A stretch of 64,000 bases of DNA from Eledone cirrhosa (lineage: Eukaryota). Below the pieces are notes generated by a model. It made no database searches. It was not told where the DNA came from and saw nothing but the letters and a program-made list of their open reading frames with translations. Location of the stretch: NCBI GenBank assembly GCA_964016885.1, contig OZ024751.1:44826001-44890000 (forward strand), written 5' to 3'. A program made the position numbers and the translations under genes. Shown here one piece after another: positions 2,784-58,601 of this stretch (the stretch's first letter is position 1; every line of letters begins with the position of its first letter).

Positions 2784-3221
2784 CTTAGGGTAAACATTGA
2801 TGCAATTCAATTCAAGCACTCGACGCACTTCTTCCACATAGGAGTGACGGAGTAAATATCGAATAAGTAAAAGCGAAGTAGTTTCAGATGTTCAAGTCCT
2901 TTAATAATAATTGTTTCTTCTTTTTGGCACAAGGCCAGCAAATACCCAGTGTATTACTGGTACTTTATTTTATCGACCCCGTAAGGATGAAAGGCAAAGT
3001 TAACCACGGCGGGATTTGAACTCAGAATGGCAAGGGCCGTAACTCTATGCGTCAAAGCATGGCGTCCGACCCTCTACCGATACTGCCTATCCACCGCCCT
3101 ATCTTAAGTCCTTTAATAATAATGCTGTGATATATATTTCAGTGTCGTCATTGAAAATATATATCACAGCATTATTATTTAAGGACTTGAACATCTGAAA
3201 CTACTTCGCTTTTACTTATTC
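2784..3221. mobile_element. Palindromic TA-inserted element interrupted by a SINE
   Basis: With the SINE removed, 2861-2911 + 3124-3140 is inverted to ~3153-3221. Left tail 2784-2860. Confidence 0.72.
2911..3100 (-). mobile_element. tRNA-derived SINE, main family (other - copies ~7947-8123, 13001-13206, 13247-13312, 15626-15710, 31946-32134, 34594-34782, 34790-35000, 46533-46718)
   Basis: ~190-bp consensus with A box TGGCAGTATCGG, B box GTTCAAATC and central 'gcctttcatccttacggggtcgataaaataaagtaccag'. 18-bp TSD at this copy. Confidence 0.9.
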
Positions 3222-3690
3222 TATATATATATATATATATATATATATATATATATATATATATATATATATATATATATATATATATATATCAGAAATA
3301 ACAATACAATCGATACAGTATATGGAAGGGATATATTAGGTTAACGCTTGAAATAGCAGGAAGAGGGTCTTAACGTTTCGGACGCTAGTCCTTCAGAAGA
3401 AGAAAGAATGAGAAATAAGATAGATTGAAAGGACGGGCGGGTTGGAATTGGAAAAAATGTCTTTAGATAAAAATAACAGGTCCCTACGTGCGAGTACCTA
3501 TATATAAATGTATATGTATATGTGTGTGTGTGTGTATGTGTGTGTATCCCAGGTTCAATCGGAGGTAACCAAAGTAAATAAGGTACTCAATACAGAGCAG
3601 AGTATAAATATTTCATATAGAAGTGTAGAAGCCTTTTCTATATTAAATAGTGAGTCTTGTTACTCTGGAATTTCGCCTGTTTATCATGGA

Positions 3691-3732
3691 GTCTGATGAC
3701 CCTGTGATAAACAGGTGAAACTCCAGCGTAAC
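3691..3732 (+). ncRNA. Hammerhead (stem I truncated) in small palindrome 3645-3747
   Basis: gu CUGAUGA c ccugu-gauaa-acagg u GAAA cuc-ca-gcg UA ac. The inverted arm 3645-3686 has gag at this position, which restores stem III. Confidence 0.62.
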
Positions 3733-55315: not shown

Positions 55316-57172
55316 TTATACTTCTCTTAGGTCAGTGTTGTTTGTTTGGGTGTTGTTGTTGTTCCACTCATTCTTTCTGTTTAGCTTTGGTCTTCTAATT
55401 TCTATTTCACTGGCCTCTCTGATTTGCCTATCTGCTGGGTCATTCCTATGTTTAGATATTATTCTAATTTCTATGTTGTCTATGTTACCGTCATGATGTT
55501 GTCTAGCATGTTCGTATAGTACTGACCCGTTTTTTCGTCCTTTTAGTTCCCCCCAGTGTTGGTCTATCCTTTCACCTATGCTACGAGCTGTCTCACCTAT
55601 GTATGTTGTTGTCGTGTTTCTACAAGTACCCTCTGTACATCTTATGCTATAGACTACGTTTCTAGTTTTACAGTTTATCCGGGGGTTCACCTTACATATG
55701 ATACATTTCCTATTGGTACAGTGGGTTTTCTTAAAAGGGTAGGTTTTGCTGATCAGGGATTTTATGGTGGTTCCTGGCTTTTCTACCACCTTTATTTTTA
55801 AGTGGGTCTTTCTCAGGGCCTTTCTACACTGGTTAGCTAATTTCCCTCCAGGGGTGGCGTCCACAAACATGACACTCTGATATCTCTGGTTGTCGTACCA
55901 TGATGTGGTCTTCCCTATCTTATGTCTAGCCCTATCTAAGCTATTCCATGATTTGCTCCTGTATAGTGGGCAAATTCCTTTCATGTCCAGTTCTATGAGG
56001 GTCTTATACTTTTCCATGGCTCCTTCGTATACTCTGACTCTGTCTCTTTGGTTGTAGCCAGAGAACTGCATGCGGTTGATGAAGTGTTGGATGTGTCCTT
56101 CCATTTCTGTTGGGTCGCACATGCTGGACACATTCTTCATCACTCGTACCAAATCTGCGATCAGAATATTAAACTTAGCACTACTGGACATTGCTGAGTT
56201 TTTGAGTATCAGGTATTTGGAGGCCATGGGTTTAGCATAGTGTGAGTGGAGAATTTGGGCTCTCTCGTCTATAGTGTTAATCCAGAGTTCTGTGTCTAAT
56301 ACAGGTAGTCTATTGTTAGGGTGTTTGGAAGGGAAGTCTATAGTTACAGTTATACTCTGGTGTATGGAATTAGCTATCTGCTGGATGCTTTCCATCGTGC
56401 TACGTTCTAAATCAAACTTGTTAGTGCTCTCTAGTGGGGGTGTTCTTATAACTATATTGATATCGTCTACATAACGAGAGTACATGATGAGGTCTATGGA
56501 GCTTTCATTAAGGAGATCTTTAAGTCTCCTTTCCCACCATACCATGAAAAGGTTGGCAACATCGCCAGCTATGCTGACGCCGATGGCTGCTCCCTCATTT
56601 TGGGTGTAGATTTTCTCATTGAACTTAAATATGTGGCCCTTTAGGGTAGTTTTGATACTAGCCCCTATTGCATGTGCGACCATTTTTCTTACCTGATCAG
56701 TGTTTTGGGGGGTCCGTATAGCTTTGGTCCACCCAATCCACCTTCCTATGGGAGTCTTTTTAGCCATTGAGGTTATGGTGGGGGGTCTACCTCTTATAGG
56801 TCTACTAGGGCAGAAACATCTAAGGTCATGGCTGTCTAGGTAGTCAGTGTCGTAGGTAAGTCTAAGTAGGAGGCCCAGTTCGTCTGTGTCGACGTCGCAG
56901 AACTCCACCTCACTCTCAATGATCATCTCCACACATCTTTTCACAGCAAAATCAATGTTAATGGATGGGTACAGTGACACCACATCCATGCTGCCTATTA
57001 TGCAGTTGGATAGGCTCCTGTTTTTGTTGCACTCACTGATTCTGCTGAGGAGGTCCTCTGTACTTTCACATACATCTGGGGACATCTTGATTATGGGGCG
57101 TATAACCATTGAGAGGAAGTAGGAGATCCTGTAGTTGCTAGCTATATTAGCTCCGCATACAGGTCTTGTTGG
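55316..57172 (-). CDS. PLE reverse transcriptase + GIY-YIG endonuclease (N-terminally truncated, frame intact)
   Basis: RT motifs SMDVVSLYPSI, GAAIGVSIAGDVANLFM, YSRYVDDI. Cys-rich linker, then NVVYSIRC...TYIGETARSIGERIDQH and RQIREASEI. The first ~40 aa of the 658-aa track ORF come from the inverted pLTR. Confidence 0.93.
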   Translation of the reverse strand, partial: PTRPVCGANIASNYRISYFLSMVIRPIIKMSPDVCESTEDLLSRISECNKNRSLSNCIIGSMDVVSLYPSINIDFAVKRCVEMIIESEVEFCDVDTDELGLLLRLTYDTDYLDSHDLRCFCPSRPIRGRPPTITSMAKKTPIGRWIGWTKAIRTPQNTDQVRKMVAHAIGASIKTTLKGHIFKFNEKIYTQNEGAAIGVSIAGDVANLFMVWWERRLKDLLNESSIDLIMYSRYVDDINIVIRTPPLESTNKFDLERSTMESIQQIANSIHQSITVTIDFPSKHPNNRLPVLDTELWINTIDERAQILHSHYAKPMASKYLILKNSAMSSSAKFNILIADLVRVMKNVSSMCDPTEMEGHIQHFINRMQFSGYNQRDRVRVYEGAMEKYKTLIELDMKGICPLYRSKSWNSLDRARHKIGKTTSWYDNQRYQSVMFVDATPGGKLANQCRKALRKTHLKIKVVEKPGTTIKSLISKTYPFKKTHCTNRKCIICKVNPRINCKTRNVVYSIRCTEGTCRNTTTTYIGETARSIGERIDQHWGELKGRKNGSVLYEHARQHHDGNIDNIEIRIISKHRNDPADRQIREASEIEIRRPKLNRKNEWNNNNTQTNNTDLREV

Positions 57173-58101
57173 TATAACACCACTGACGATGTTGCAGATG
57201 TGCAACGAAAGATTTATGTAAACTATATATATATGTGTTTGTCTATATTGTATCTGTATTATTTTTGACCGCCGGTCAGTCAATGGCAACATTGAGGACC
57301 GAGTAAGTTAGATCGCAGATATATATATATAAAAGACAGCGAGAAGCGAAAACCAACCAAACAGTGAGTGTGTTCTGTTATTAATTCTGGCAATATTACG
57401 CAAATATGACCCTCCCCAAATATAACAATATCTGTTTCGACACACGATTTCATATAAAAAACCTCGCAAAACTAATTCATCGCCGCTATATATATATATA
57501 TATATATATATACATATATATGTGTGTATGTGTATGTGTCTGTCTTCTTTCATTATAATCCTTACACTCTATAAGTTGAGTAACTTGTTTTACGTAATCA
57601 TTACGTAAAGCAATTAAAATAATATATACACATGTTCATATTCATGTATGTATAATCAGCACGAGGTGTGAGTGAGGACTTGCAATTATATGGAATGTAT
57701 GCGCGTAATTATGTGTGCCTGTATATGTGCGTGTGCGTGTGTATGTGCGTGTGCCTGGATGTGTGTTTGTGCCTACGTATATGCGAATGCGTGTATTTCG
57801 CAATAAATATATAAAAAAGCACGTGTCGAATGAATGGAATTGTATGATGGGCGGCAACCAGTGAACCGTCGAATATATACACACAGACACATATATATAT
57901 ATATACACACACACAGTATATATAATTATATATATATATATATATATATATATATATATATATATATATATATATATATATATATATATAGTGAAAAATT
58001 GAACGGGAACAAAACAGAGAGGCAGTACGAACAAAGGTTTATTAATTTCACGCTCTTGAGAGTGGGGTGGTGGTATATATATATATATATATATATATTT
58101 C

Positions 58102-58601
58102 TTTAGGTTTGTTGGTTCACCACTGGATAGAACTGGTCATTCCGTGTGGTCAATCCTGGTGTAATATTGTGAAGAGTACTCAACGCAGTGCAGTTCACCC
58201 ATCTTCGTTTGTGTAGTTGGTGGTGCGAATACGGAGTTAATTATAAATGAAATAAAATAACAGGAGGCTGGACTGGTGTAAATCCTTGAAAGGTTTATTA
58301 TACTATGATCATTTCAATGACCGGGTTCCATATGAATCCGGTGATATCATCAGGTATTGGAATATAACAAAGTAATATGTAAAAAACCATGGGTCCGAAA
58401 AATCAGAGACAGAGAGAGAAAGGACGACTGACCAACTAGCTTCTCGGCCAGTCGCCCTCAAAATGGGCGACTATTGTTATATTCCAATACCTGATGATAT
58501 CACCGGATTCATATGGAATCCGGTCATTGAAATGATCATAGTATAATAAACCTTTCAAGGATTTACACCAGTCCAGCCTCCTGTTATTTTATTTCATTTA
58601 T
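58102..58601. mobile_element. Family E palindromic hammerhead element
   Basis: Arms 58242-58369 and 58474-58601 are inverted, with a ~140-nt left tail. (TA)n flanks. Confidence 0.8.
58487..58544 (+). ncRNA. Type I hammerhead (mirror copy 58300-58357, -)
   Basis: auac CUGAUGA uauc accggauuc-auaug-gaauccggu cauu GAAA ugauca UA guau. Confidence 0.82.

What the first reader, a model, noticed from the sequence alone, without database searches (positions are those of the whole stretch)
2815..58183. Conserved YGAGTNCY motif in the 3' tails of unrelated families
Seen, read in ribozyme-sense or inferred tail orientation: tcgagtgctt (2815 -), ttgagtacct (family A, e.g. 3582 -), ttgagtgctt (4238 +), ttgagtactt (family B), tagagtgctt (27995 -), ttgagttctt (family C, 29274 +), ttgagtgcta (54337 +), ttgagtgctt (54700 +), ttgagtactc (58174 -). 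Each lies ~35-80 nt from the tail end, while the surrounding sequence is mostly not alignable. Inferred: a cis element for RT/endonuclease binding, priming, or pLTR promoter activity. It is not evident in the 53687/54787 family or the 52.5 kb element.
Basis: seen in the sequence. Interest (0 to 1): 0.72.

Follow-up and report, generated by a model that had tools for sequence, protein, structure and literature searches.

The report
Twin RNA stems mark retroelement ends
The short motif is one half of a small bulged RNA hairpin that Penelope-like jumping genes of several animal groups carry twice, each copy sitting about 7 bases behind one of the two places where copying starts, which would explain their puzzling one-sided 'tail'.

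Summary
The motif is real: 31 matches against 14.5 expected, and 17 of them lie 30-90 nt before a (TA)n or (CA)n end. It is only the 3' arm of a bulged stem: RCUC-[variable helix]-UN-GAGY-DCY. Nine of 10 largely unalignable families have the stem (0.32 expected), and the inner helix covaries.

A motif-blind hammerhead search in animal contigs found the G-C form behind Hydra-clade Penelope ORFs in 14 of 21 long copies, and in 0 of 13 copies with other hammerheads. Published Hydra consensi from coral, sea cucumber and sea louse carry it too.

In 16 of 17 family-level cases the junction interval contains a position 7 nt upstream of a stem. Intact 5'UTRs hold two stems: the short end precedes stem 1, and the tail end precedes stem 2.

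Best reading (0.65): an RNA site, shaped like the TAR/7SK arginine sandwich, that positions the reverse transcriptase at both start sites. Binding is untested. The Hydra assignment of the window's families is inferred. No description was found in 8 literature searches.

The parts
2815..2853 (-). Bulged stem, family F1; inverted short copy stops at 3221, exactly 7 nt 5' of the stem in element coordinates
3582..3603 (-). Bulged stem, family A; the + copy at about 3625-3649 stops at the -7 site (read by eye)
4217..4246 (+). Bulged stem, family G (7-bp inner helix); no hammerhead or inverted partner found
4410..4431 (+). Bulged stem, family A variant; third inner pair is U-A where other A copies have C-G
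25617..25639 (-). Bulged stem, family D (UUCG loop); top hit of the model trained on non-window copies
26472..26498 (-). Bulged stem, family B (3' flank mutated); short end 8-5 nt upstream
27996..28025 (-). Bulged stem, family E (UA bulge, one G.G mismatch); hammerhead cores at 28137(-) and 28258(+); short end 8-5 nt upstream
28658..28679 (-). Bulged stem, family A
29199..29282 (+). Bulged stem, family C (71-nt inner segment); short end 7-4 nt upstream
29432..29458 (+). Bulged stem, family B variant
29591..29617 (-). Bulged stem, family B; short end 8-5 nt upstream
33876..33959 (+). Bulged stem, family C; short end 7-4 nt upstream
34069..34090 (-). Bulged stem, family A; hammerhead cores at 34156(-) and 34168(+) with 4-bp stem III; short end 17-12 nt upstream (the exception)
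42263..42289 (+). Bulged stem, family B; short end 8-5 nt upstream
42529..42552 (+).
42966..42992 (+). Bulged stem, family B
51603..51624 (-). Bulged stem, family A; hammerhead core at 51690(-)
54318..54345 (+). Bulged stem, family J; short end within 7 nt (ambiguous TA overlap)
54686..54708 (+). Bulged stem, family M; hammerhead core at 54535(-) on the inverted copy; short end 7-4 nt upstream
58175..58237 (-). Bulged stem, family P (50-nt inner segment); hammerhead cores at 58353(-) and 58491(+); short end 8-4 nt upstream
55316..57307 (-). 5'-truncated PLE ORF of another lineage (Neptune-like linker; the clade label is my reading). Its family lacks the stem: a negative control, and probably not the mobiliser

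Best explanation
The feature is a small RNA element, 5'-RCUC-[helix of any sequence]-U-N-GAGY-DCY-3', with a 2-nt bulge on the 3' arm. It occurs twice in the 5'UTR of Hydra-clade Penelope-like elements, between the hammerhead and the start codon. SHOWN: the structure, its covariation, the two copies, and that insertion ends fall about 7 nt upstream of each copy. INFERRED: the element's RT/endonuclease protein binds each stem. The protein holds the template so that a nicked (TA)n primer pairs with a short UA(U) patch in the 7-nt spacer, and copying starts just upstream. Starts at stem 1 give the short end and starts at stem 2 give the long end. The one-sided tail is the stretch between them, so it always contains stem 1 and never stem 2. 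Starts on opposite target strands give the head-to-head copies. More speculative: two RT molecules act together (about 0.45), and the bulge is read as a TAR/7SK-type arginine sandwich (about 0.35).
For: Stem in 9 of 10 window families against 0.32 expected. Stems with a 2-nt bulge number 30, against 13, 4, 11 and 8 for bulges of 0, 1, 3 and 4 nt. Over 30 instances the pairs hold in 29, 29, 28 and 27 at the base pair and three inner pairs, against shuffled means of 22, 22, 16 and 13; 0 of 5000 shuffles reached them. Motif-blind replication: 14 of 21 long copies with a 4-bp hammerhead stem III, 0.03 expected; 0 of 17 short copies; 0 of 13 copies with other hammerheads. The junction interval contains 7 nt in 16 of 17 family-level cases. 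Two copies precede the ATG in L333 and L336; tail ends of the L336 and L334 families stop 8-4 nt before copy 2. Published consensi agree. A model trained only on 19 non-window copies ranks 15 known window sites among its 18 best hits. Frangieh 2024 shows that PLE tail ends are RT start sites and that RNA 3' of the start site is needed.
Against: No binding or priming experiment exists. In whole-tail folds the stem had probability above 0.6 in only 3 of 10 valid cases; in local folds it exceeded 0.5 in 25 of 30. Strand asymmetry is weak: 8 G.U against 2 A.C pairs, P=0.055. Family A has a short end 17-12 nt upstream, and two copies of one MAG family gave inconsistent values. Four tail ends before one copy 2 scatter from 8 to 5 nt. 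Seven of 21 long copies lack a strict stem. Copy 2 is unseen for any window family. No Hydra ORF lies in the window, and window flanks do not align convincingly to Hydra flanks (best z 1.4-3.8). Instances are related, so the shuffle P values overstate independence, and the A-U/G-C swap may be only a few events.
Confidence: 0.65

Rival explanations
1. The stem is an RNA processing signal: the transcript is cut, or ends, a few bases upstream of each stem, and ordinary TPRT starts from the free 3' end.
For: It explains the same fixed spacing. RNA-seq read ends fall on the start sites of the anole element.
Against: The anole element initiates internally on uncut RNA in vitro. No Rfam match lies at the stems.
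Confidence: 0.13
2. The stems serve RNP assembly or translational autoregulation only, and the ends are set by UA microhomology alone.
For: Copy 2 lies 19-22 nt before the ATG. TA starts at -7 or -8 in 20 of 30 instances, so microhomology could choose the site.
Against: TA dinucleotides are common at other offsets too (2-7 of 30 per offset), yet ends keep to one distance. Family F1 ends at exactly 7 nt with no microhomology.
Confidence: 0.1
3. The element works as DNA (cruciform or single strand) recognised by the GIY-YIG endonuclease, which cuts at a fixed distance when resolving the intermediate.
For: The D. virilis Penelope endonuclease needed the tail for DNA recognition (as cited by Frangieh). 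Craig 2021 ascribes the tail to endonuclease resolution. Antisense folds were not worse.
Against: G.U pairs outnumber A.C pairs 8 to 2. In the anole element the tail equals the interval between RT start sites on RNA.
Confidence: 0.08
4. Shared ancestry, a promoter motif or chance, with no structural role.
For: Several sites are copies of three families. A motif-led metagenome scan gave mostly chance hits.
Against: Covarying inner helix, inner length from 8 to 71 nt, replication in a motif-blind set and in several phyla, fixed spacing.
Confidence: 0.04

Closest known systems
Hydra clade of Penelope-like elements (Craig et al. 2021, PMC8557442)
   Same: (TA)n target, canonical hammerhead with a 3-4-bp stem III, head-to-head truncated copies. 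The stem is present in their own consensi: Hydra-2_Amil, Hydra-2_Ajap, twice in Hydra-1_Ajap, and as variants in Hydra-1_Crog (read by eye).
   Different: The passages I saw do not mention the stem ('hairpin' 0, 'stem-loop' 0, 'bulge' 0 occurrences) and ascribe the tail to endonuclease resolution. The window's families have no ORF, so their clade is inferred.
Internal RT initiation in the anole Poseidon element PAc (Frangieh et al. 2024, PMC11167929)
   Same: Two start sites bound the tail; RNA 3' of the start site is required; priming is on AT-rich DNA.
   Different: [quoted passage not shown] I saw no RCUC/GAGY stem in the letters of Fig. S1. No pair of positioning stems or fixed spacing was reported in the parts read.
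Arginine sandwich motif of HIV TAR and 7SK (Pham et al. 2018, PMC6189040)
   Same: Paired purine, then a bulged U, then G-C and A-U pairs: the same local secondary structure.
   Different: The helix closes on the other side. No triple or arginine contact is shown here. Four instances of 7SK/TAR context do not make the motif diagnostic, so the likeness may be convergent.
RT-recognition stems of other retroelements: LINE 3' stem-loops, HBV epsilon, R2 3'UTR (recalled, no call)
   Same: A structured cis element that binds the RT and places the start of cDNA.
   Different: Those occur once per start. Here two copies lie in the 5'UTR, downstream of internal start sites, and one of them is left out of the insertion.

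Membership tests
Penelope-like element insertion (window families) | Hammerhead in the terminal repeat, on the same strand upstream of the tail | tested here: met
   Cores or 3' halves for A, B, C, E, M, P; not found for F1, D, G, J
Penelope-like element insertion (window families) | Inverted 5'-truncated copy with a one-sided tail | tested here: met
   F1, A, B, C, E, J, M, P
Penelope-like element insertion (window families) | RT plus GIY-YIG ORF in cis | tested here: not met
   No ORF fragment is attached to a stem-bearing family in the window; these are 3' stubs
Hydra clade (stem-bearing loci in G001-G003) | RWK motif, DKT motif, CxCX5C linker, no CCHH in the endonuclease | tested here: met
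   L333 ORF and alignment A3: RxRW[KR] in 75 of 87 against 0 of 37 in A1; ADKT and CNCx5C in the consensus; definitions
Hydra clade (window families) | Hydra-type ORF | not testable with these tools
Hydra clade (window families) | (TA)n target and hammerhead with a 4-bp stem III as in File S2 | tested here: met
Hydra clade (window families) | Flank sequence alignable to Hydra elements | tested here: inconclusive
   Best z 1.4-3.8 over about 18 comparisons each. Family A aligns to L031 at z 8.4; L031 resembles the Hydra-linked L267 by eye
Arginine sandwich motif (TAR/7SK) | Paired purine before a bulged pyrimidine, with A-U as the second pair after the bulge | tested here: met
   Purine in 29 of 30; U first and U-A pair in 30 of 30 (required by the search for the non-window set)
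Arginine sandwich motif (TAR/7SK) | Base triple and arginine intercalation | not testable with these tools
   Needs NMR, structure or binding data
Non-LTR retrozyme (tandem hammerhead monomers) | Two or more tandem units, each with a hammerhead | tested here: not met
   Window copies are head-to-head stubs; definition. One monomer of about 170 nt lies in L282
Known Rfam RNA family | Match to a curated model | tested here: not met
   Only a tRNA in the window; nothing at the stems in 3 loci at E<=1

The most novel reading that the evidence does not exclude
Hydra-clade Penelope-like elements use two TAR-like arginine-sandwich stems in their 5'UTR as a molecular ruler. Two molecules of the telomerase-related RT each dock on one stem and start cDNA 7 nt upstream, on opposite strands of a cut (TA)n target. 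This one rule would produce the tail, the inverted copy and the boundaries of full-length and non-autonomous units, and a 25-nt tag could direct the RT to any RNA.
Probability: 0.3. Interest if true: 0.9.

Novelty: new variant of a known kind. Interest (0 to 1): 0.8.

Why it matters
How Penelope-like elements choose their start sites, and why insertions carry a one-sided tail and an inverted copy, is still open; one element has been reconstituted in vitro. This gives a defined 25-nt cis element, kept from molluscs to corals, echinoderms and crustaceans, with a quantitative prediction: move a stem and the insertion end moves; change the distance between stems and the tail length changes. It also offers a marker for annotating Hydra-clade stubs and their non-autonomous derivatives, and a handle on RNA recognition by the closest retroelement relatives of telomerase.

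Tried and rejected
No whole genome was held, and genome-wide copy ends from reads were not obtained, so the spacing rests on 17 family-level cases. No RNA holder was listed for the stretch queried; this says nothing on expression. A complex prediction for the protein dimer was not available, so the two-RT step is untested.

The motif-led metagenome scan gave 61 loci, mostly chance: inner helix of 0, 1, 2, 3 and 4 bp in 16, 27, 10, 4 and 4 loci, and no hit to the first protein set. L025, L028 and L044 looked promising but lie upstream of receptor-like genes (label recalled) and were rejected. Only L031 was kept. Viral scans with the motif pattern and with alignment A1 were empty; the 61 viral hammerhead-pattern loci held no full hammerhead.

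The window's ORF was rejected as mobiliser: its tail lacks the stem and its profile is only 14% identical to the Hydra-type profile. Cross-pairing with hammerhead stem III was rejected: some Hydra hammerheads have ACUC-N-GAGU there, but their tail stems are GCUC/GAGC, and window families with ACUC/GAGU stems have other stem III sequences. The stem does not extend by a further pair (14 of 30).

MAFFT could not align whole tails and misplaced the inner helix, so the tool count on the fitted alignment gave only 68% pairing there; anchored counts were used instead. Family E had a wrong offset, corrected. Seven of 26 candidates without hammerhead, TA or ORF context were dropped before the covariation count. 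One Naiad 3'UTR hit about 440 nt from the end was not counted. The variant near 190 (-) and the deleted copy at 28398 were left out of the counts. Look-ups of earlier findings gave nothing on this stem.
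Full report
CONTEXT. The window is AT-rich animal DNA full of (TA)n runs. Its one long ORF (55316-57307, -) is a 5'-truncated RT plus GIY-YIG protein whose best hit is an Octopus vulgaris protein at 69%. Many small insertions sit head-to-head in (TA)n with hammerhead cores. This is the Penelope-like (PLE) pattern of an inverted truncated copy plus a one-sided tail (Craig 2021).

OBSERVATION. YGAGTNCY occurs 31 times against 14.5 +/- 3.6. Seventeen of the 31 have TY before GAGT and a microsatellite end 30-90 nt downstream, against a 12% background. 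They belong to 9 families. Flanks align in only 5 of 55 pairs. The 53687/54787 family and the 52.5-kb element lack the motif.

WHAT IT IS. The motif is the 3' arm of a stem. ACTC lies upstream and pairs with GAGT. Inside it a second helix of free sequence closes 9-71 nt, and a 2-nt bulge sits on the 3' side. Such stems number 30 for a 2-nt bulge, against 13, 4, 11 and 8 for bulges of 0, 1, 3 and 4 nt. Other GAGT sites have the stem in 10 of 343 cases. Nine of 10 families have it, against 0.32 expected from shuffles; the definition was made on these data, so this figure is post hoc.

INDEPENDENT REPLICATION. (a) Craig 2021 File S7, read by eye. Of 6 Hydra-clade consensi, Hydra-2_Amil and Hydra-2_Ajap end in a perfect G-C form. 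Hydra-1_Ajap has two perfect copies in its 5'UTR. Hydra-1_Crog has variant copies at both ends. Hydra-1_Amil and Hydra-1_Obim have only imperfect candidates. Five had full hammerhead stems: two carried a perfect stem, one a stem with one mismatch, and two none. These are animal contigs inside three prokaryotic assemblies. Protein- and hammerhead-led searches there gave 51 distinct hammerheads. The stem follows 14 of 21 copies that have a 4-bp stem III and at least 75 nt of readable flank (0.03 expected), 0 of 17 short copies, and 0 of 13 copies with 2-3-bp palindromic stem III, of which only 4 were long. Hydra-type ORF ends lie directly upstream in most such families. The proteins meet the published Hydra criteria, and a predicted model (pLDDT 91) matches TERT best. 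(c) A covariance model trained only on 19 non-window copies placed 15 known window sites among its 18 best hits, plus one new G-C-form site at 42529 and one palindrome hit twice; it missed F1, C and E.

COVARIATION. Over 30 instances (11 window, 19 others, after dropping 7 of 26 candidates without context) the base pair holds in 29 (12 A-U, 17 G-C), and the three inner pairs in 29, 28 and 27, with up to five pair types each; 0 of 5000 shuffles reached these counts. The best inner helix was chosen per site and the copies are related, so these P values are optimistic. The bulge starts with U in 30 of 30 (required by the search outside the window) and follows a purine in 29 of 30. The stem is weak: probability above 0.6 in 3 of 10 whole-tail folds, above 0.5 in 25 of 30 local folds. 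G.U pairs outnumber A.C pairs 8 to 2 (P=0.055).

THE SPACING. Each head-to-head insertion has a short end and a long end. Allowing for TA microhomology, the short end lies 7-7 (F1), 8-5 (E, B), 7-4 (C, M), 8-4 (P) and at most 7 (J) nt upstream of the stem; in the MAG families it lies 10-3, 8-5, 7-3, 7-6, 8-5, 8-6 and 10-6 nt upstream. Family A is the exception at 17-12, although one A copy stops at the -7 site (by eye). Seven pairs were not resolved by the script; E and one MAG family were taken, and two copies of another MAG family were inconsistent between calls. Intact 5'UTRs hold two stems, the second 19-22 nt before the ATG (L333, L336); L334 keeps only the second. Tail ends of the L336 family stop 8-4 nt before stem 2 (2 copies), and those of the L334 family stop 8-8, 8-7, 7-6 and 6-5 nt before it. 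Counting these four as one 8-5 interval, 16 of 17 family-level intervals contain 7. The full-length copy in L336 begins at stem 1. The published Ajap-1 and Crog consensi are cut at the same places (by eye).

MECHANISM. Shown: structure, duplication, spacing. From the literature: tail ends are RT start sites, RNA 3' of the start is required, and a dimer was predicted for PAc (Frangieh 2024). Inferred: the PLE protein binds each stem and starts cDNA about 7 nt upstream, primed by nicked (TA)n DNA that usually pairs with a UA(U) patch in the spacer (TA at -7 or -8 in 20 of 30). Two stems give two starts, so the tail contains stem 1 only. [quoted passage not shown] Hydra-type proteins have invariant R37 and R484 in two basic patches. 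This is a lead, not a test. Confidence is 0.65 for a positioning site; rivals are RNA processing 0.13, packaging or translation only 0.10, DNA recognition 0.08, and no role 0.04.

MEMBERSHIP AND NOVELTY. The stem-bearing MAG loci are Hydra-clade PLEs. The window's families are PLE stubs whose Hydra assignment rests on the stem, the hammerhead shape and the target, not on an ORF. It works like other RT-recognition stems (recalled), but is duplicated and lies downstream of internal starts. Eight searches found no description of it; subscription papers are not covered.

WHAT I READ. Frangieh 2024: parts 1-2 of 4 and supplements 1-2 (little text; the gbk file was unreadable and the xlsx was not read, and both may bear on the PAc comparison). 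Craig 2021: passages, section 11, three supplement searches and supplement parts 2, 23, 52 and 53 of 59. Cervera 2014: part 1 of 4. The 2026 retrozyme preprint: parts 1-2 of 5. Pham 2018: passages.

VERDICT. A real, conserved, apparently undescribed cis element with a sharp and testable prediction. New variant of a known kind; interest 0.8.

Noticed in passing
window 57432-57490 (+) and 53687-53742 (-): The tail of the Neptune-like family lacks the stem but shares a short AC-rich stretch (TTCGACA..CAC) with the anole PAc tail letters in Fig. S1; possibly a second, clade-specific tail motif.
   Followed up: partly
window 3650-3770: Head-to-head element with a Hydra-like hammerhead and only a 22-nt extension; no stem. 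It abuts a family A short copy at a shared TA.
   Followed up: partly
window 150-415: Inverted element with a one-sided extension holding a UCUC/GAGA variant stem about 9 nt after the short end; no hammerhead found.
   Followed up: partly
window 28380-28500: Family B-like copy whose stem 5' arm appears deleted between two ACCC repeats; its tail is very short.
   Followed up: partly
window 3780-4318: About 430 nt upstream of stem G with no hammerhead, ORF or inverted partner; origin unexplained.
   Followed up: partly
window 50322-50365: Palindromic hairpin with 8-bp arms that scores with the model on both strands, but has a 1x1 mismatch and no TA flank.
   Followed up: partly
window 28986-29122 and 33672-33805: Family C hammerhead appears to have a stem II extended to about 115 nt (read by eye).
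   Followed up: no
L282 (-) about 480-650: A monomer of about 170 nt between TA runs, made of one stem plus a hammerhead, circularly permuted at the 7-nt junction: a candidate minimal non-autonomous unit.
   Followed up: partly
G001, G002, G003: Three GTDB species-representative assemblies contain animal contigs with dozens of PLE fragments (40 protein matches): host contamination.
   Followed up: yes
Craig 2021 File S2; L170, L223, L262: Hammerhead stem III in several Hydra families is ACUC-N-GAGU, the same letters as the window's stem arms; a common origin by duplication is possible.
   Followed up: partly
L293 (-) about 566-605: A good stem copy at the start of another repeat, without hammerhead or TA context.
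   Followed up: no
window 42673-42744 (+): tRNA-like Rfam match (46.6 bits).
   Followed up: no
window 59030-61950 and 47660-48180: Tandem arrays with units of about 10 nt and 20 nt.
   Followed up: no
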